Shown: piece by piece, positions 3,001-9,000 of the stretch | Layout: the number at the start of each line of letters is the position of its first letter | Numbering within the stretch: position 1 is the stretch's first letter | Origin: Rhabdothermincola salaria | Lineage (GTDB): Bacteria; Actinomycetota; Acidimicrobiia; Acidimicrobiales; Acidimicrobilacustridaceae | DNA: 64,000 nucleotides | Direction of reading: 5' to 3' | NCBI RefSeq assembly: GCF_021246445.1 | Contig: NZ_JAJQXW010000002.1 | Coordinates: 682,001-746,000 of the forward strand | Program-made: the position numbers

Positions 3001-6000
3001 CCCCTTGTTGGCCGCAGTGCTCGGTCGTCTGTCCGAGGCCTTGGTCGGCGGCGAGCTCGACGTCCTCGGGCTGCAGCTGGCCGTCCCGGGGGTCCGGCTG
3101 GCCCTGTGGCTGGCCGCGGTCATCATCGTCGGCGCCGGGCTGGCCGCGTGGGCATCGCTGCGGGCCGGTGAGCGGGCGTCGCGGGCCCAGTCGTCTGCGC
3201 ACCCCTCCGGGCACGGTCACCGGTGACCGCCCCCGTGGAGGGTCGCTTCATCGCCTTCGAGGGCGGCGAGGCCTGCGGCAAGAGCACCCAGGCCCGCCTT
3301 CTCGCCGACGCGCTGGGGGCGGTGCTCACCCGTGAGCCCGGCGGCACCGCCATCGGCGCCCAGCTGAGGGCGCTGATGCTGTCACCCGACACCCACGCTC
3401 TCGACGACCGGGCCGAGGCGTTGCTCATGGCCGCCGACCGGGCCCAGCACGTGGCCGAGGTCGTGCGCCCGGCGCTGGCCGCCGGCCGCCACGTGGTCAC
3501 CGACCGCTACGCGGGCTCGTCCGTCGCCTACCAGGGCTATGGGCGGGGGCTGCCTCCCGACGAGGTCCAGTCGCTCTCGCAGTGGGCCACTGCGGGGTGC
3601 TGGCCCGACCTCGTGGTCGTGCTGGTCGTGCCCCCGTCGGTGTCCGTTCTGCGCCTCGGCGGCGAGCACGATCGGATGGAGGCCGCCGGCGACGAGTTCC
3701 ACGCCCGGGTCCTCGACGGCTTCCTGCGCCAGGCCGAGGCCCGGCCCGACCGTTGGGTGGTCCTCGACGGCGACCGGCCCGTCGACGAGGTCCACCACGC
3801 CGTGCGGGCCGTCGTGCGCGAGCGGCTACAACTGCTCCCATGACGTCGTTGTCCGAGCAGCCCGTGCTGAGCGCCGAGGCCGAGGGGGTCGACCTGTGGG
3901 CCGACGTCGTCGGCCAGGACGCGACCGTGGCCGAGCTGCGGGCCGCGGTCGACGCCCCGGTGCACGCCTACCTGCTGGTGGGGCCCCGAGGCAGCGGCAA
4001 GCGGGCCCTGGCGGCCGCCTTCGCCGCCGCGCTGCTCTCACGCGACCGGGTGGGCCCGGACGCGGCCCGCCACGCCCGCCTGGCCCTGGCCGAGGCCCAC
4101 CCCGACCTCACCGTGATCGAACGCAAGGGCGCCTCGATCTCGGTGGAGCAGGCCGACGAGATCATCGCCGCCGCCTGGCGGGCTTCGGTCGAGGGCGGAC
4201 CCAAGGTCCTGGTCCTCGACGAGTTCCACCTCGTCACGTCAGCCGGTCCCAAGCTGCTCAAGTCGATCGAGGAACCGCCGGCGGGCACGGTCTTCGTGGT
4301 GCTGGCCGAGCAGCTCACCGCCGACCTCGTCACCATCGCCAGCCGCTGCGTGCGAATCGACGTTCCGGCCGTGGACGACGCCGCCGTGGCCGAGCGGCTG
4401 GTGGCCGAGGGCGTCGACCCCGAGCGCGCCGCCGATGCGGCCGCCGCCGCGGTGGGCGATCTGCGCCGGGCCCGGCTGTTGGCCACCGACGACCGCGTGG
4501 CGCTGCGCCGCCGCGCCTGGCACGCCGTGCCCGACCGCCTCGACGGCACCGGTGGTCGGGCGGTGGAGGCGGCCGACGAGCTGCTGGCCATGATCACCGA
4601 CGCCATGGCCCCTCTGGCCGAGGCTCAGGCCGCCGAGCTGGCCGAGCTCGAGGAGCGGGTCAAGGCCCGGGGAGAGCGGGGGTCCGGGCGGGCCGACCTG
4701 GTGGCCCGCCACAAGCGCGAGGAGCGTCGCTATCGCACCGACGAGATCCGTGCCGGCCTCACCGAGCTGGCCCGTCGGTATCGCGACGAGCTGACCGTCG
4801 CCGCCCGCCCCCAGGCTTCGCTGGCAGCCATCGACGCCGTCACCGAGCTGGCCGACGAACTGGTGCGCAACCCCAACGAGCGCCTCCAGCTGGTGGCCCT
4901 GTTCGTCCGCCTCAGCAACCTCGACACCCGCTAGGCCGGTCGAGGAGCGTCCGCGGGGCGGTCGTCGTCCGCCCGCCACGGGCTGGTCCCGACGCCGGGG
5001 CGGGGCGCTACCATCGTCGGACCCGCCCGGGTAGCTCAGTCGGCAGAGCAGCTCACTCGTAATGAGCAGGTCAGGAGTTCGATTCTCCTCTCGGGCTCCA
5101 ACAGATCCCCCGCTCCGGGCAAGGGGTCCCTCGTGACCGAGCGGCCCGAGCCGTGCCTCACGTGGTCGGCCCCGGCGTCTCGCTCAGCTGGTCGACGAGG
5201 GCGTCGTAGGTAGCGGCCACGGTGGGCCAGGCGAAGCGGGCGACGTGGGCCCGGGCCGCGCCGGCGGCGGCGCGGCGGCCCTCGTGGTCGGTGAGGGCGG
5301 TGCGCAACGACCGCACCAGGTCGTCCTCGTCGTCGTAGAGGTACGGCTCGGGGGTGGGGACGAGCTCGGGGTAGGCGAGGCGCCGGGGGAGGACCGCCGA
5401 CGCGCCGGCGGCCATGGCCTCCACCACCGCGATGCCGAAGAACTCGTGCCGGGCGGTGCTCACGACCACGTCGGCCCGGCCGATGAGGTCGACGTAGCCG
5501 GCCCGGTCGGCGGTGCCGAAGTGCACGATCCGTGGCCCGAGCCGGTCGCGCGCCTCGGCGAAGGCGGGAGGAACCACCCGGAAGCTCTCGCCGGCGACGG
5601 CGACCTCGAAGGCGACCCCTTGGTCGGCCAGCGCGTGCAGCGCGGCGAAGAAGTCCTCCGGAGCCTTGTCGTACTCCCAACGGTGGTTCCAGAGCACCAA
5701 GGGCACCCGGTCGGGGTCCGGCGGGCGGTCGGGGAGGACGAACAGCTCGGCGTCGACGCCGATGGGCACCACCGTCGAACGAGCCGCCACCTCGTCCAAC
5801 CGGTGGTCGTGGCGGCGATCCGGGAAGCGGGACAGGAAGTCCGGCAGGGCGTCGAGGACCTCCGTGCGGTGGAACTCGGAGTTGAACACCACCCGGTCGG
5901 CGGCGGCCATGCTCAGCCAGTTGGTCATGGCGTAGGTGTGATCCGGGGGACCCTCGCGGGGCGGGGGGTAGGTCAGCTGGTTCTCGTGGAAGTACACGAC

Positions 6001-9000
6001 GACGGGAACGCCGGCGAGCGATCGCCGGGCCATCCCGAGCATGGCCGGCACGTGCACCATCTCGCTCACGACGAGCACGTCGGGGCGGCCATGGAGGGCT
6101 ACGTGCCCGTCGACCTGTTCGGCCATGGTCAGCGCCGCGCCCTGCATCCGCCACTTCCACGACGTGCCGGGATGCGTGACCACGGTGACGTCGTGACCGC
6201 TGTGGGCGGCCAGCCCCTCGGCCCACGCCCGGTGCGATGCGGTGGCGTAGGGCTCGCAGAGGAGGACCCGTCGACGGGTCACGAACCCGTCGGGGTCGGT
6301 CCCTCGGGGACATCACCCGCACCGCCGTCGAGCGGTTCGAGCACGAAGAGCCGGATCGTCCTCGAGGTGACCCGCTCCTGGTAGGCGCGGTAGCCGCCGT
6401 AGATGCCGGCCGAGGCGGCCCAGATCCGCTCGCGCTCGTCGTCGGTGGCGGGCCGGGCCCGTGCCCGGACCGATCGCTGCCGGTACTCCACGGTGGCCTC
6501 GGGGTCGGCCTCCAGGTTGAGCACCCACGCCGGGGTGGAGGGCTGCCCGAAGTTGGTGCCCAACAGGGTGAGGTCGTCGTCGAGGGGCACCGAGATGAGG
6601 GGCGTGCTGCGGGGTCGGCCGCTGCGCCGCCCGGTCGTGGTGACGGTGAGCACCGGGAGGCCGGCGAGCACGCCCGGCAGGCTGGCGCGGCCCCGGGTGA
6701 GGCGGTGGGTGAGACGGTCGAGCGGGGGCAGCAACCGGGCGAACAGCCAGGCCCCGGGTCGGGTGGACGCGCCCGACTGCACCAGGCGCTGCACGACGTT
6801 GGGTGGCTGGTGGCGGTAACCGAGGTCGCGGCACAGGCCCATGGACCCGAAAGCTAGCCACTGCCGGGCGTCGGAGGGGCGGCCGGGTCGGCCCCGGCCG
6901 AGGGGTGGTCGGCACGGATCGCTGCTAGAACGGATCGATGGCCGACCAGGCGACGTTCGCGGACCAGGCGATGGAGTACATGCCGTCGCTCTACGCGGCC
7001 GCTGTGCGCATGACGCGCAACCCCTCCGATGCCGAGGACCTGGTGCAGGAGACGTACCTCAAGGCCTACCGAGGGTTCGGCGGGTTCCAGGAGGGCACCA
7101 ACCTCAAGGCCTGGCTGTACCGCATCCTCACCAACACGTTCATCAACTCGTACCGCTCCAAGAAGCGCCGGCCCGACGAGACCGAGCTGGACGAGGTCGA
7201 GGACCTCTACCTCTACCGCCGCCTCGGTGGGCTGGAGGCCGCTCAGGCCGGCCGCAGCGCCGAGGACGAGCTCATGGACTGGTTCACCGACACCGAGGTG
7301 AAGGACGCCATCGAGGCCCTCCCCGAGCAGTTCCGCCTGGCCGTGCTGCTGGCCGACGTCGAGGGGTTCTCCTACAAGGAGATCGCCGAGATCCTCGACA
7401 TCCCCATCGGTACCGTCATGAGCCGCCTGCACCGGGGAAGAAAGTCGCTGCAGAAGGCGTTGTACGAGTTCGCCCTCGAACGTGGGCTCACCGGTCGTCG
7501 GCCCAGTGTCGACGACACCGCCCCGACGGACGACCGCGAACCGGCGCACACCGGTTCGTCCCGCACCGACGACGAATGACGGACATGGCCGACCACCACC
7601 ACCACGACGACCGGCCCACCGACTGCGAGGAAGCCCTCGCGGAGATCTACACGTTCCTCGACGGCGAGCTCACCGAGGCCAAGCGCACCGCCATCGCCTC
7701 CCACCTCGAGGGCTGCAACCCGTGCGTGGAGGTCTTCGACTTCGAGGCCGAGCTGCGCATGGTCATCTCCACCAAGGCCACCGAGCCGGTGCCCGAGTCG
7801 CTGCGGCTGCGGATCTCCAAGACGCTGCTGTCGTTCGGCGGCGACGAAGCCACCGACGACGACGACGACCGCGCCGCCTTCTGAGTTCGCCGCCCCAGGC
7901 CCTAGGATCGATCCTCATGGAACTCCTGTCCGTGGTCTGGTCCTACTGGATCGGCGTCGCTCTCGTCGTGCCGGCCATCCTCCTCGTCGTCGGCATCATC
8001 GGCATGTACGTCTACAAGGTCGTCGTCCCCCGCTACCCCAAGCGCTGAGGCGACGATGGCCGGAGCAGTCGACTGGGCCTTCGCCGAGAAGGTCGCCGTC
8101 CGCGTCGCCGGCCGTGAGCCCTTCGCCCTCTCCTACCACCACGACTCGCTGGCCCCGGACTTCGCCCGCTTCACGGCCCAGGCCGAGGAACTGGTCGAGG
8201 CCGAGACCGGCCTGCGGTCCCTGGCCGGTCCCGCTCGCGCCCGGGTGACCGACCGACCGGGGTGGGTGCGGGCCAACCTGGCCTCGTTCCAGCGGCTGCT
8301 GCGGCCCCTCCTCGACCGCTTCGGCGAACGGGTCGACTCCTCGCCCCTCGCCCCGGTCACCACCCGTCTCGCCGGGGCCGAGCTGGGCATGATGCTCGGT
8401 TGGATGAGCACCCGGGTGCTGGGCCAGTACGACCTGTTGGTCATCGAGGAGGAGAACCCCCACGAACAGGACCTCGTGTACTACGTGGGCCCCAACGTGC
8501 TGTCGATCGAGAAGCAGTTCGCCTTCCCGCCCGGTGAGTTCCGGTTGTGGTTGGCCCTGCACGAGGTGACCCACCGGGCCCAGTTCACGGGCGTCCCCTG
8601 GTTGCGCGAGCACTTCATCGGGTTGGTCCACCAGACCCTCGAGGCGGTCGAGCCCGACCCCCAGCGCCTCTTCGACGCCCTCGGGCAGCTCACCGAGTCG
8701 CTGCGCGCCGGGCGCAACCCGCTCGCCGACGGTGGCATCGCCACGCTGTTGGCCGGGCCCGAGCAGCGGGCCGTGCTCGACCAGGTCACCGGTCTCATGA
8801 GCCTGCTCGAGGGCCACGGTGACATCACCATGGACCGCGCGGGACAGGGCCTGGTCCCCAGCGCCGACCGCTTCGGGCGCGCCCTCCGCCAGCGCCGCCA
8901 GTCGGCGTCGGGGCTGGCCAAGCTGCTCCAGCAGATCATCGGGCTCGAGGCCAAGCTCAACCAGTACGCCGAGGGGGAGGCCTTCATCGAGGCCGTCGAG

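What a model noticed while it worked through the whole genome (the two positions that open the first line are those of the whole stretch)
5158..6282. Bacterial ortholog of the animal tRNA-queuosine alpha-mannosyltransferase (QTMAN) beside a complete queuosine pathway
g02439 (374 aa) is a full-length homolog of QTMAN/GTDC1, the enzyme that makes mannosyl-queuosine in animal tRNA-Asp. Its five best Swiss-Prot matches are all animal QTMANs (28-33% identity over about 320 of 374 residues, E 1e-47 to 1e-36). It has the family-specific N-terminal domain end to end (QTMAN_N 1-168 of 168, 178.6 bits), followed by a GT4 catalytic domain. The genome also encodes the whole de novo queuosine route (queC g01643, queD g03176, queE g01642, queF g01291, tgt g00403, queA g00402, queG g00208), a Qng1-type salvage hydrolase (g01295) and tRNA-Asp-GTC. 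Glycosylated queuosine is regarded as an animal trait; this gene predicts that a hexosylated Q34 exists in this bacterium. T [...]
Evidence so far: swissprot.tsv, pfam.tsv and relatives.tsv rows. Pathway genes. tRNA-Asp in rna.tsv. No solved QTMAN was found by sequence, only a generic GT4 at E 9e-4. Papers on QTMAN seen (listings in calls 159, 161, 162; passages of two preprints in calls 160, 163): the titles and abstracts listed deal with animal tRNAs, and term searches in the two preprints turned up no mention of bacterial homologs.
(Added by a program. Inside this text positions count along the whole contig: contig position 682,001 is position 1 of the stretch shown here. "Call 12" and the like, gene names such as g00115 and contig names such as C1 are that model's own, and its searches are not shown. 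The text may have been shortened before it was handed on; [...] marks where a part breaks off. The agent that wrote the report below was given it as the finding of a first reader that could run no searches.)

Follow-up and report, generated by a model that had tools for sequence, protein, structure and literature searches.

The report
Bacterial homolog of queuosine mannosyltransferase
This bacterium carries an intact relative of the animal enzyme that adds mannose to the tRNA base queuosine, which predicts, but does not show, that sugar-decorated queuosine also occurs in bacteria.

Summary
Window 5158-6282 (-) is an intact 374-aa GT4 glycosyltransferase with an end-to-end QTMAN_N (PF12038) domain. 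It shares 39 invariant alignment columns with 11 animal QTMANs and 11 other bacterial homologs. The genome encodes tgt, queA, queG, queF, queC, Qng1 and all four GUN tRNAs, but none lies next to the gene.

The gene is not a rarity. The family has about 1,000 clusters at 50% identity, is found in at least 599 bacterial species genomes across many phyla, and databases already label it DUF3524 or "putative tRNA-queuosine alpha-mannosyltransferase".

Every carrier genome examined has tRNA-queuosine machinery. queA was found in 15 of 15 Actinomycetota carriers (186 of 386 non-carriers) and in 49 of 50 diverse carriers. tgt was found in 26 of 26 Chloroflexota carriers.

Three results weigh against the simple reading:
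- 21 of those 26 Chloroflexota carriers lack queA, queG and queF, and have a remodelled TGT pocket.
- This genome also encodes GluQRS, which acts on the same hydroxyl of tRNA-Asp Q34.
- No neighbouring gene is conserved across related loci.

The best reading, at about 0.55, is a queuosine-34 hexosyltransferase whose sugar and target tRNA are unknown. No paper in the held library mentions bacterial homologs, and the 2023 discovery paper could not be read.

The parts
5158..6282 (-). QTMAN-like GT4 glycosyltransferase gene, 374 aa, GTG start
   Evidence: ORF; Pfam. The AlphaFold2 model has mean pLDDT 88.9 and pTM 0.87, with two Rossmann-like halves. Its nearest solved folds are retaining GT4 enzymes.
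5755..6270 (-). N-terminal QTMAN_N domain (residues 5-176), taken to be the acceptor-binding half of the GT-B fold
   Evidence: PF12038 covers profile positions 1-168 of 168 at 179 bits. Of the 39 columns invariant across 12 bacterial and 11 animal sequences, 19 lie here. The acceptor-binding role is inferred from the general GT-B architecture.
5965..5988 (-). HENQLTYP motif (residues 99-106)
   Evidence: H99, E100, N101, Q102, L103, Y105 and P106 are invariant in 23 of 23 aligned bacterial and animal sequences.
5665..5691 (-). WNHRWEYDK motif (residues 198-206) at the start of the C-terminal domain
   Evidence: W198, R201, W202, D205 and K206 are invariant in 23 of 23 sequences. A role in binding the nucleotide-sugar phosphates is inferred from GT4 relatives and was not tested.
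5212..5715 (-). C-terminal GT4/GT1 donor-binding domain (residues 190-357)
   Evidence: PF00534, PF13692 and PF13524 are all over their cut-offs.
5419..5445 (-). E-x7-E motif (E280-E288, HEFFGIAVVEA)
   Evidence: Seen in the alignments. F281 and G283 are invariant and E288 is at least 90% conserved. That this motif marks retaining GT4 enzymes is recalled knowledge.
6279..6842 (-). Upstream gene of the F420H2-dependent quinone reductase family. Its stop overlaps the glycosyltransferase start by 4 nt (GTGA), so the two are probably co-transcribed.
   Evidence: PF04075 at 96.3 bits; the overlap was read. This pairing was found in 0 of 80 related loci, so it probably carries no functional meaning.

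Best explanation
The gene encodes a soluble, retaining GT-B (GT4) glycosyltransferase that is the bacterial counterpart of animal QTMAN. Most likely it transfers a hexose from a nucleotide sugar onto a hydroxyl of the cyclopentenediol of queuosine at position 34 of one or more GUN-anticodon tRNAs. The tRNA would first be made Q-modified by TGT, QueA and QueG. By analogy the donor would be GDP-mannose.

Shown here: the fold class, the family membership, the motifs shared with animal QTMAN, and the presence of the Q machinery in this genome and in every carrier genome examined.

Inferred only: the acceptor, the sugar, which tRNA is modified, and the linkage.
For: 1. Family membership. The match to PF12038 is end to end. 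Thirty-nine columns are invariant across 12 bacterial and 11 animal sequences. Nineteen of them lie in the family-specific N-terminal half, including HENQLxYP.

2. Tree. The 19 animal sequences form one side of a single branch against 35 bacterial ones (SH-aLRT 100). The window's protein sits inside an Actinomycetota clade. It is therefore an old bacterial family, not contamination.

3. Co-occurrence with the Q machinery.
- In a 401-genome sample of the phylum, PF12038 is in 15 genomes from 10 families and 13 genera. All 15 have queA at E 7.6e-91 or better. queA is over its cut-off in 201 of all 401 genomes, so in 186 of the 386 non-carriers.
- Of 50 carriers from other lineages, 49 have queA, 47 of them over the cut-off. 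The 50th, G448, has queG at 338.6 bits.
- In a 301-genome Chloroflexota sample, 26 of 26 carriers have tgt over the cut-off. tgt is present in 256 of all 301.

4. The carriers without queA are consistent with direct queuine use. Their TGT has a remodelled pocket at the positions that separate preQ1-type from queuine-type enzymes (determinants from PMC3660597 and PMC6165067). In one of them a Qng1 gene ends 33 nt before tgt.

5. The gene is not in a glycan cluster. No neighbouring family is shared by more than 13 of 80 loci.

6. Fusions. Six crustacean homologs are fused to RRM RNA-binding domains. One bacterial homolog is fused to a GH2 beta-mannosidase-like module.
Against: - No glycosylated queuosine has been reported from any bacterium in the papers I could search. 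PMC10690763 states that sugar-modified Q is found in vertebrates.
- Twenty-one of 26 Chloroflexota carriers lack queA, queG and a true QueF. Their tRNA can carry the diol only if queuine is salvaged, which is inferred and not shown. Within that phylum the gene is commoner in genomes without a queA match (21 of 97) than in genomes with one (5 of 204).
- The own genome has GluQRS, and so do 7 of 50 other carriers. On tRNA-Asp the two enzymes would compete for the allylic hydroxyl.
- No link to Q genes appears in the gene neighbourhood of any of the 80 loci.
- Identity to the animal enzymes is only 28-35%.
- Bacterial proteins lack the long insert between the two domains that 10 of the 11 aligned animal proteins carry (krill P0149 has none).
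- The protein is acidic (pI 5.67), which gives no charge-based hint of RNA binding.
- tgt and queA are common in bacteria anyway, so outside Actinomycetota the co-occurrence discriminates weakly. Related genomes are also not independent observations.
Confidence: 0.55

Rival explanations
1. It glycosylates an acceptor unrelated to queuosine, such as a small cytoplasmic metabolite or another RNA or nucleotide. On this view the animal enzyme's Q34 specificity is a later specialisation of the family.
For: - The nearest solved folds are GT4 enzymes with small-molecule acceptors: MshA, PimA, BshA, sucrose-phosphate synthase and a tetrahydrobiopterin glucosyltransferase.
- Twenty-one of 26 Chloroflexota carriers lack queA, queG and queF.
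- No neighbourhood link to Q genes was found.
- Identity to animal QTMAN is only 28-35%.
- The protein is acidic.
Against: - Nineteen invariant columns lie in the N-terminal half across bacteria and animals. This argues that the acceptor site is kept.
- Every carrier examined has tgt, or queA or queG.
- In Actinomycetota the gene was not found in any of the 200 genomes without a queA match over the cut-off.
Confidence: 0.25
2. It acts on free queuine, queuosine or a Q nucleotide as part of salvage, storage or export, and not on tRNA.
For: - The own genome carries a Qng1-type Q_salvage gene.
- The gene is enriched in Chloroflexota that appear to depend on salvaged 7-deazaguanines.
- The fold neighbours use small acceptors.
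Against: - The characterised animal member works on tRNA, according to the introduction of the preprint read.
- Qng1 is found in only 2 of 26 Chloroflexota carriers.
- Nothing tested here separates free Q from tRNA-bound Q.
Confidence: 0.08
3. It is an ordinary cell-envelope or exopolysaccharide GT4, as JGI's automatic name suggests ('glycosyltransferase involved in cell wall biosynthesis').
For: - The JGI names.
- Weak NCBIfam matches of the C-terminal domain to EPS glycosyltransferases: 47 bits against a cut-off of 400.
Against: - No other glycan-synthesis gene is a conserved neighbour in the 80 loci, or in the window.
- The N-terminal domain is family-specific: 179 bits to QTMAN_N against 32-34 bits to the generic GT4 N-domains.
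- The family is shared with animals, which have no bacterial cell wall.
Confidence: 0.07

Closest known systems
Animal QTMAN (GTDC1), tRNA-queuosine alpha-mannosyltransferase
   Same: Same two-domain build, QTMAN_N plus a GT4 C-terminal domain. Thirty-nine columns are invariant across both groups, including GSH, KWxWR, HENQLxYP, W-x2-RW-x2-DK and STAxHEFFG. The Q34 substrate machinery is present in the host genome.
   Different: - Identity is 28-35%.
- The bacterial protein has no long insert between the domains; 10 of the 11 aligned animal proteins have one, and krill P0149 does not.
- The host makes Q de novo, whereas animals salvage queuine.
- The host also has GluQRS.
- Activity, sugar and target tRNA are untested.
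- Animals form a clade separate from all bacterial sequences.
GluQRS (YadB), glutamyl-queuosine synthetase of bacteria
   Same: It is the only decoration of the Q34 cyclopentenediol known in bacteria. It acts on tRNA-Asp at the allylic hydroxyl (passages of PMC10690763).
   Different: It is an unrelated fold, a truncated GluRS, and uses different chemistry: an aminoacyl ester rather than a glycoside. It is present alongside the QTMAN-like gene in this genome and in 7 of 50 other carriers, so the two genes do not exclude each other.
Retaining GT4 enzymes with solved structures (PimA, MshA, BshA, GlgM, sucrose-phosphate synthase)
   Same: GT-B fold. Foldseek E-values are 1e-14 to 1e-11 with TM-scores up to 0.73. 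The E-x7-E motif is present.
   Different: Identity is 12-20%. Their N-terminal domains do not carry the QTMAN_N motifs. The sequence search of the PDB gives E about 1e-3 at best.
QTGAL (B3GNTL1), the animal galactosyl-queuosine transferase
   Same: It decorates the same diol of Q34, on tRNA-Tyr (abstracts).
   Different: It is a different protein family. Its being a GT-A-type enzyme is recalled and was not tested. No comparison was made here.

Membership tests
QTMAN/GTDC1 family (PF12038 + GT4) | Complete N-terminal QTMAN_N domain | tested here: met
   Profile positions 1-168 of 168, 179 bits against a cut-off of 25.
QTMAN/GTDC1 family (PF12038 + GT4) | C-terminal GT4 (Glycos_transf_1) domain with E-x7-E | tested here: met
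   PF00534 at 40.8 bits, PF13692 at 37.2 bits. E280 and E288 are seen in the alignments.
QTMAN/GTDC1 family (PF12038 + GT4) | Family-specific motifs shared with the animal enzymes over both domains | tested here: met
   Thirty-nine invariant columns in 23 sequences, 11 of them animal. The motifs come from this alignment, not from a published definition.
QTMAN/GTDC1 family (PF12038 + GT4) | Closest named relatives outside bacteria are QTMANs | tested here: met
   A tapeworm QTMAN matches at E 9.8e-36. Animals are the only named non-bacterial group. The Swiss-Prot ranking itself could not be re-run.
QTMAN/GTDC1 family (PF12038 + GT4) | Substrate available: Q34-forming enzymes and GUN tRNAs in the same genome | tested here: met
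   tgt, queA, queG, QueF, queC; four GUN tRNAs.
QTMAN/GTDC1 family (PF12038 + GT4) | Transfers mannose from GDP-mannose to Q34 of tRNA-Asp | not testable with these tools
   This needs biochemistry or nucleoside mass spectrometry. GluQRS in the same genome makes tRNA-Asp less certain as the target.
CAZy GT4-type retaining glycosyltransferases | GT-B fold with two Rossmann-like domains | tested here: met
   Model with pLDDT 88.9. The listed top Foldseek matches are GT-B glycosyltransferases, most of them GT4.
Cell-wall or exopolysaccharide glycosyltransferases | Encoded within a cluster of other glycan-assembly genes | tested here: not met
   No such neighbour is conserved in the 80 loci. The window neighbours are tmk, holB, tRNA-Thr, an F420H2 quinone reductase and a sigma factor.

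The most novel reading that the evidence does not exclude
Glycosylated queuosine is not an animal invention. Bacteria of many phyla would make a hexosyl-Q34 with this enzyme. One Chloroflexota lineage would run the whole 'animal-style' route: no QueA, QueG or QueF; a TGT with a remodelled pocket that inserts salvaged queuine directly; then glycosylation by the QTMAN homolog. In that case the animal enzyme and the bacterial enzymes share one ancient function.
Probability: 0.3. Interest if true: 0.8.

Novelty: new member of a known kind. Interest (0 to 1): 0.6.

Why it matters
Sugar-modified queuosine is described as a vertebrate or animal feature, and glutamyl-Q as the bacterial one. If the bacterial homologs are active on Q34, a new bacterial tRNA modification would exist in hundreds of species. 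The origin of the animal enzyme would become traceable.

Bacteria could also serve as simple genetic systems for asking what Q glycosylation does to decoding. E. coli is a candidate host, because it has Q and none of the 14 control genomes has a homolog.

The prediction can be tested with one nucleoside LC-MS run on a cultured carrier.

Tried and rejected
- Neighbourhood link to Q genes. I clustered all ORFs of at least 90 aa within 7 kb of the gene in 80 loci. Apart from the gene itself and its antisense shadow ORFs, no family is shared by more than 13 loci, and none is Q-related. The window's own neighbours recur in 0 to 5 loci.
- Mutual exclusion with GluQRS. Rejected: the own genome has both genes, and so do 7 of 50 carriers.
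- The idea that the one carrier without queA or tgt (G448) holds a pseudogene. Rejected: the stop reported is the gene's natural stop. G448 has queG, so an assembly gap is likelier.
- Weak QueF hits in 20 Chloroflexota carriers. Two of 2 checked are GTP cyclohydrolase I.
- Solved QTMAN structure. None was found by sequence or by fold.
- Charge as a hint of RNA binding. pI is 5.67 and the median of 99 bacterial homologs is 6.25, so this is uninformative.
- RNA-seq evidence. No RNA holder was listed.
- The 2023 Cell discovery paper is not held, whether looked up by DOI or by PubMed id. Whether it mentions bacterial homologs remains unknown.
- Paper search was badly framed (26,487 hits) and gave nothing usable.
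- Fusions. Only 3 longer proteins were found, and none is fused to a tRNA-modification enzyme.

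
Full report
**The feature**

Window 5158-6282 on the minus strand is an uninterrupted 374-codon ORF with a GTG start. Its start overlaps the stop of the upstream gene by four bases, GTGA. That upstream gene, 6279-6842 (-), belongs to the F420H2-dependent quinone reductase family. Downstream lies a convergent tRNA-Thr(CGT) at 5025-5100.

Pfam places residues 5-176 on the whole QTMAN_N model: positions 1-168 of 168, 179 bits, E 8.6e-53. 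Residues 190-344 fall on Glycos_transf_1. NCBIfam has no model for the protein; the best score is 47 bits against a cut-off of 400. No solved structure is close by sequence; the best E-value is 9.2e-4.

**Fold**

An AlphaFold2 model built on 20 homologs has mean pLDDT 88.9 and pTM 0.87. It shows two alpha/beta halves. Foldseek against the PDB returns retaining GT-B enzymes of the GT4 type. These include MshA, PimA, GlgM, sucrose-phosphate synthase, BshA, SenB and a tetrahydrobiopterin glucosyltransferase. E-values run from 1e-14 to 1e-11 at 12-20% identity. No QTMAN structure appears in that library.

**Relation to the animal enzyme**

A search for longer relatives gave a tapeworm protein that UniRef names tRNA-queuosine alpha-mannosyltransferase. 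It matches at E 9.8e-36, with 32% identity over 81% of the query. Using that protein as the query gave 473 relatives at E up to 1e-10. Of the 120 listed, 114 carry a source name, all from animal species, and most are named QTMAN or GTDC1.

I aligned the window's protein, 11 other bacterial homologs from six or more phyla, and 11 animal proteins. The alignment has 39 invariant columns. Nineteen are in the N-terminal half: S16, H17, W42, W44, A50, R86, H99-E100-N101-Q102-L103, Y105, P106, D114, D129, F133, N134, P154 and V171. Twenty are in the C-terminal half, including W198, R201, W202, D205, K206, T276, F281 and G283.

Ten of the 11 aligned animal proteins carry a variable insert between the two halves (krill P0149 does not), and the bacterial ones have none. 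In GT-B enzymes the N-terminal half usually forms the acceptor site. That is general knowledge and was not tested here. Its conservation across the two domains of life is the main sequence argument that the acceptor is shared.

**How common the family is**

- 4,559 of the 8,000 scored candidates in the 90%-identity collection match at E up to 1e-5. The best 120 all carry PF12038.
- In the exhaustive scan of 1.84 billion cluster representatives at 50% identity, 1,009 match at E up to 1e-30.
The 80 kept come from Actinomycetota, Chloroflexota, Rhodothermota, Bacteroidota, Thermodesulfobacteriota, Myxococcota, Bdellovibrionota, Acidobacteriota and Planctomycetota. They include the cultured Geothermobacter hydrogeniphilus HR-1 (lineages as printed).
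- The names in use are 'DUF3524 domain-containing protein' (NCBI) and 'glycosyltransferase involved in cell wall biosynthesis' (JGI). The ESM Atlas uses 'putative tRNA-queuosine alpha-mannosyltransferase'.

At database level, then, bacterial homologs are already visible and partly named after the animal enzyme.

**Tree**

A FastTree of 139 rows and an IQ-TREE (LG+C20 PMSF, quick search) of 54 rows agree on two points. The animals form one clade; the split of 19 animals against 35 bacteria has SH-aLRT 100. The window's protein lies inside an Actinomycetota group. In one search the animal clade joins a Brocadiaceae sequence and the GH2-fused protein P0122 with support 98. In one search that attachment is weak (59). 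The root is unknown, so no direction of transfer can be given.

**Queuosine machinery in this genome**

All of the following are over their curated cut-offs:
- queA at C1:429053-430102 and tgt at C1:430192-431271, adjacent to each other
- queG at C1:229133-230116
- QueF at C1:1397231-1397464
- Q_salvage/Qng1 at C1:1400973-1401761
- queC at C1:1794784-1795431

ARAGORN finds single genes for tRNA-Asp(GTC), Asn(GTT), His(GTG) and Tyr(GTA) among 51 tRNAs. I did not check queD or queE. None of these genes is near the glycosyltransferase, which lies at C2:687158-688282.

**Co-occurrence, Actinomycetota**

In 401 genomes drawn evenly from the phylum, G000 included, PF12038 is in 15. These represent 13 of 253 genera and 10 family codes. 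queA is over its cut-off in 201 of the 401. All 15 carriers have queA at E 7.6e-91 or better. Among non-carriers that leaves 186 of 386.

Put the other way, none of the 200 genomes without a queA match over the cut-off has the gene. Related genomes are not independent, and most carriers lie in lineages where queA is general. I therefore read this as a passed test of a necessary condition, not as a strong statistic. The background counts include six genomes flagged unpublished; none is a carrier.

**Co-occurrence, other phyla**

Of these 50 genomes, 49 have queA at E up to 0.001 and 47 are over the cut-off. Two have the gene in pieces.

The exception is G448, a 2.3-Mb Flavobacteriales MAG. It has an intact homolog and no tgt match. 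It does have queG at 338.6 bits. The two other carriers in its family, and three non-carriers, all have tgt. An assembly gap is the simplest reading.

**The result that cuts the other way**

In 301 Chloroflexota genomes PF12038 is in 26. queA at E up to 1e-50 is in 204 of the 301, but in only 5 of the 26 carriers. The same 21 carriers also lack queG; only 4 of the 26 have it. They lack a true QueF as well. Only 2 of the 26 have strong QueF matches, and the weak ones are GTP cyclohydrolase I in 2 of 2 checked. Yet all 26 have tgt over the cut-off, against 256 of all 301.

So the gene tracks TGT, not the de novo pathway. In this phylum it is in fact commoner where queA is missing. The 21 have near-identical tgt scores and probably form one lineage. 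These background counts include four genomes flagged unpublished; none is a carrier.

**Reading the TGTs**

I compared the TGT pocket motif in 17 genomes.
- In 6 of 6 TGTs from genomes with queA it reads GGL[A/S]VGE. These are the own genome, G408, G746, G810, G580 and G562.
- In 10 of 11 TGTs from genomes without a queA match it reads GGSLG-x-x-K, one residue shorter. Five of these genomes carry PF12038 and five do not. G553 is the exception.
- The D-x-C triplet reads DEL in four of the five carriers.

Cys158 and Val233 (Zymomonas numbering) are the positions that separate the preQ1-using bacterial enzyme from the queuine-using eukaryotic one. There, Val and Gly open room for the cyclopentenediol (abstract and passages of PMC3660597; passages of PMC6165067).

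Depending on where the one-residue gap is placed, Val233 aligns with either Gly or Leu. The pocket is clearly remodelled, but its specificity cannot be read from sequence. In G786 a Qng1-type gene ends 33 nt before tgt on the same strand. Only 2 of the 26 carriers have Qng1.

The inference is that these bacteria insert salvaged queuine directly, as eukaryotes do. That would keep the acceptor available for the QTMAN homolog. It is an inference and nothing more.

**GluQRS**

The own genome has a match to the GluQRS model at 301.5 bits against a cut-off of 276.7, at C2:139143-139979. Seven of 50 other carriers also have one over the cut-off. [quoted passage not shown] In animals mannose sits on the allylic 3-hydroxyl of Q in tRNA-Asp (abstract of PMC12518689).

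On tRNA-Asp the two enzymes would therefore compete for one hydroxyl. Either they serve different tRNAs or different hydroxyls, or they act under different conditions.

**Neighbourhood and fusions**

Clustering of 2,951 ORFs around the gene in 80 loci found no conserved partner. The largest clusters were a zinc-ribbon/cold-shock-like protein in 13 loci, an ABC ATPase in 12 and a ComF-like protein in 9. Those three labels are my own reading of the sequences and were not tested. A stand-alone gene fits a housekeeping modification enzyme better than a glycan-assembly enzyme, but it gives no positive link to Q.

Three longer forms were found:
- one fused to an M20 peptidase
- one fused to a GH2 beta-mannosidase-like module, which is a hint of mannose chemistry from a single sequence
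- the tapeworm gene model

Six crustacean homologs carry RRM domains.

**Literature**

Fourteen held papers contain 'QTMAN', none contains 'DUF3524', and five contain 'GTDC1' together with 'queuosine'. Thirty-five contain 'mannosyl-queuosine' together with 'bacteria', and five contain 'GTDC1', 'bacterial' and 'glycosyltransferase'.

I saw the listings and abstracts of these. I also read passages of the two preprints 10.64898/2026.06.28.735034 and 10.64898/2026.03.22.713446, and of PMC11755703. Term searches of the two preprints for 'prokaryot', 'homolog' and 'ortholog' returned no occurrence, and the shown passages holding 'bacteria' were all methods or gut-microbiome text; PMC11755703 was searched only for 'QTMAN', 'GTDC1', 'mannosyl' and 'glycosylat', and the three passages shown say nothing of bacterial homologs. 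The discovery paper (Zhao et al. 2023, Cell) is not held, so I cannot say what it states.

**Verdict**

The most likely function is hexosylation of Q34 in tRNA (confidence 0.55). The sugar and the target tRNA are open. The main rival is another acceptor (0.25).

The gene is one ordinary member of a large bacterial family that databases already name after the animal enzyme. The functional prediction is nonetheless untested and absent from the papers I could search, and one mass-spectrometry experiment would settle it. The Chloroflexota lineage that has TGT plus the QTMAN homolog, but no QueA, QueG or QueF, is the most interesting by-product of this work.

Noticed in passing
Loci L087-L091, L118, L119, L123-L125 (TGT genes of Chloroflexota genomes G575, G759, G727, G706, G767, G547, G522, G715, G739, G771): A TGT subtype. 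Its pocket motif reads GGSLGxxK in place of GGL[A/S]VGE, and in four genomes DEL replaces D-E-C. It occurs in 10 of 11 examined genomes without a queA match and in 0 of 6 with queA. This may be a bacterial queuine-inserting TGT.
   Followed up: partly
Loci L092-L094, L098, L099 (second TGT-like genes of G727, G575, G791, G746, G810): A TGT paralog scoring about 290-309 bits to the tgt model, with GGWPLD in place of GGLAVGE. It occurs in 15 of 26 PF12038-carrying Chloroflexota, both with and without queA. Its function is unknown.
   Followed up: no
G786:C19:39491-41529 (not fetched as a locus): A Q_salvage/Qng1 gene ends 33 nt before tgt on the same strand, in a genome that lacks queA, queG and QueF.
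   Followed up: no
Protein P0122 (1244 aa, metagenomic): A QTMAN-like glycosyltransferase (residues 16-344) fused to a GH2 beta-mannosidase-like module (residues 414-1237). This is a single sequence. It groups near the animal clade in the FastTree.
   Followed up: partly
Proteins P0149, P0160, P0197, P0199, P0224, P0238 (crustaceans): Animal QTMAN homologs carrying N-terminal RRM RNA-binding domains (PF00076, PF16367, PF23085), according to the precomputed Pfam lists.
   Followed up: no
Proteins P0077, P0081, P0082, P0090: Bacterial homologs of about 450 aa with a C-terminal Amphi-Trp domain (PF20068). Confirmed for P0077 only.
   Followed up: partly
window 6279-6842 (-): A gene of the F420H2-dependent quinone reductase family whose stop overlaps the glycosyltransferase start by 4 nt. 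The pairing was found in 0 of 80 related loci.
   Followed up: yes
window 3223-5100 and 6938-9129: Housekeeping surroundings. On one side: thymidylate kinase (3223-3843), DNA polymerase III delta' (within 3582-4934) and tRNA-Thr(CGT) at 5025-5100. On the other: an ECF-type sigma factor (6938-7579), then a small ORF ending at 7884 with an H-x3-C-x2-C motif, then a Zincin_2 metallopeptidase (8056-9129). The small ORF had no Pfam hit. Reading it as an anti-sigma factor is recalled, not tested.
   Followed up: partly
G000:C1:1397231-1401761 and G000:C2:139143-139979: In the own genome QueF and the Qng1-type salvage gene lie about 3.5 kb apart. A GluQRS gene is also present.
   Followed up: partly
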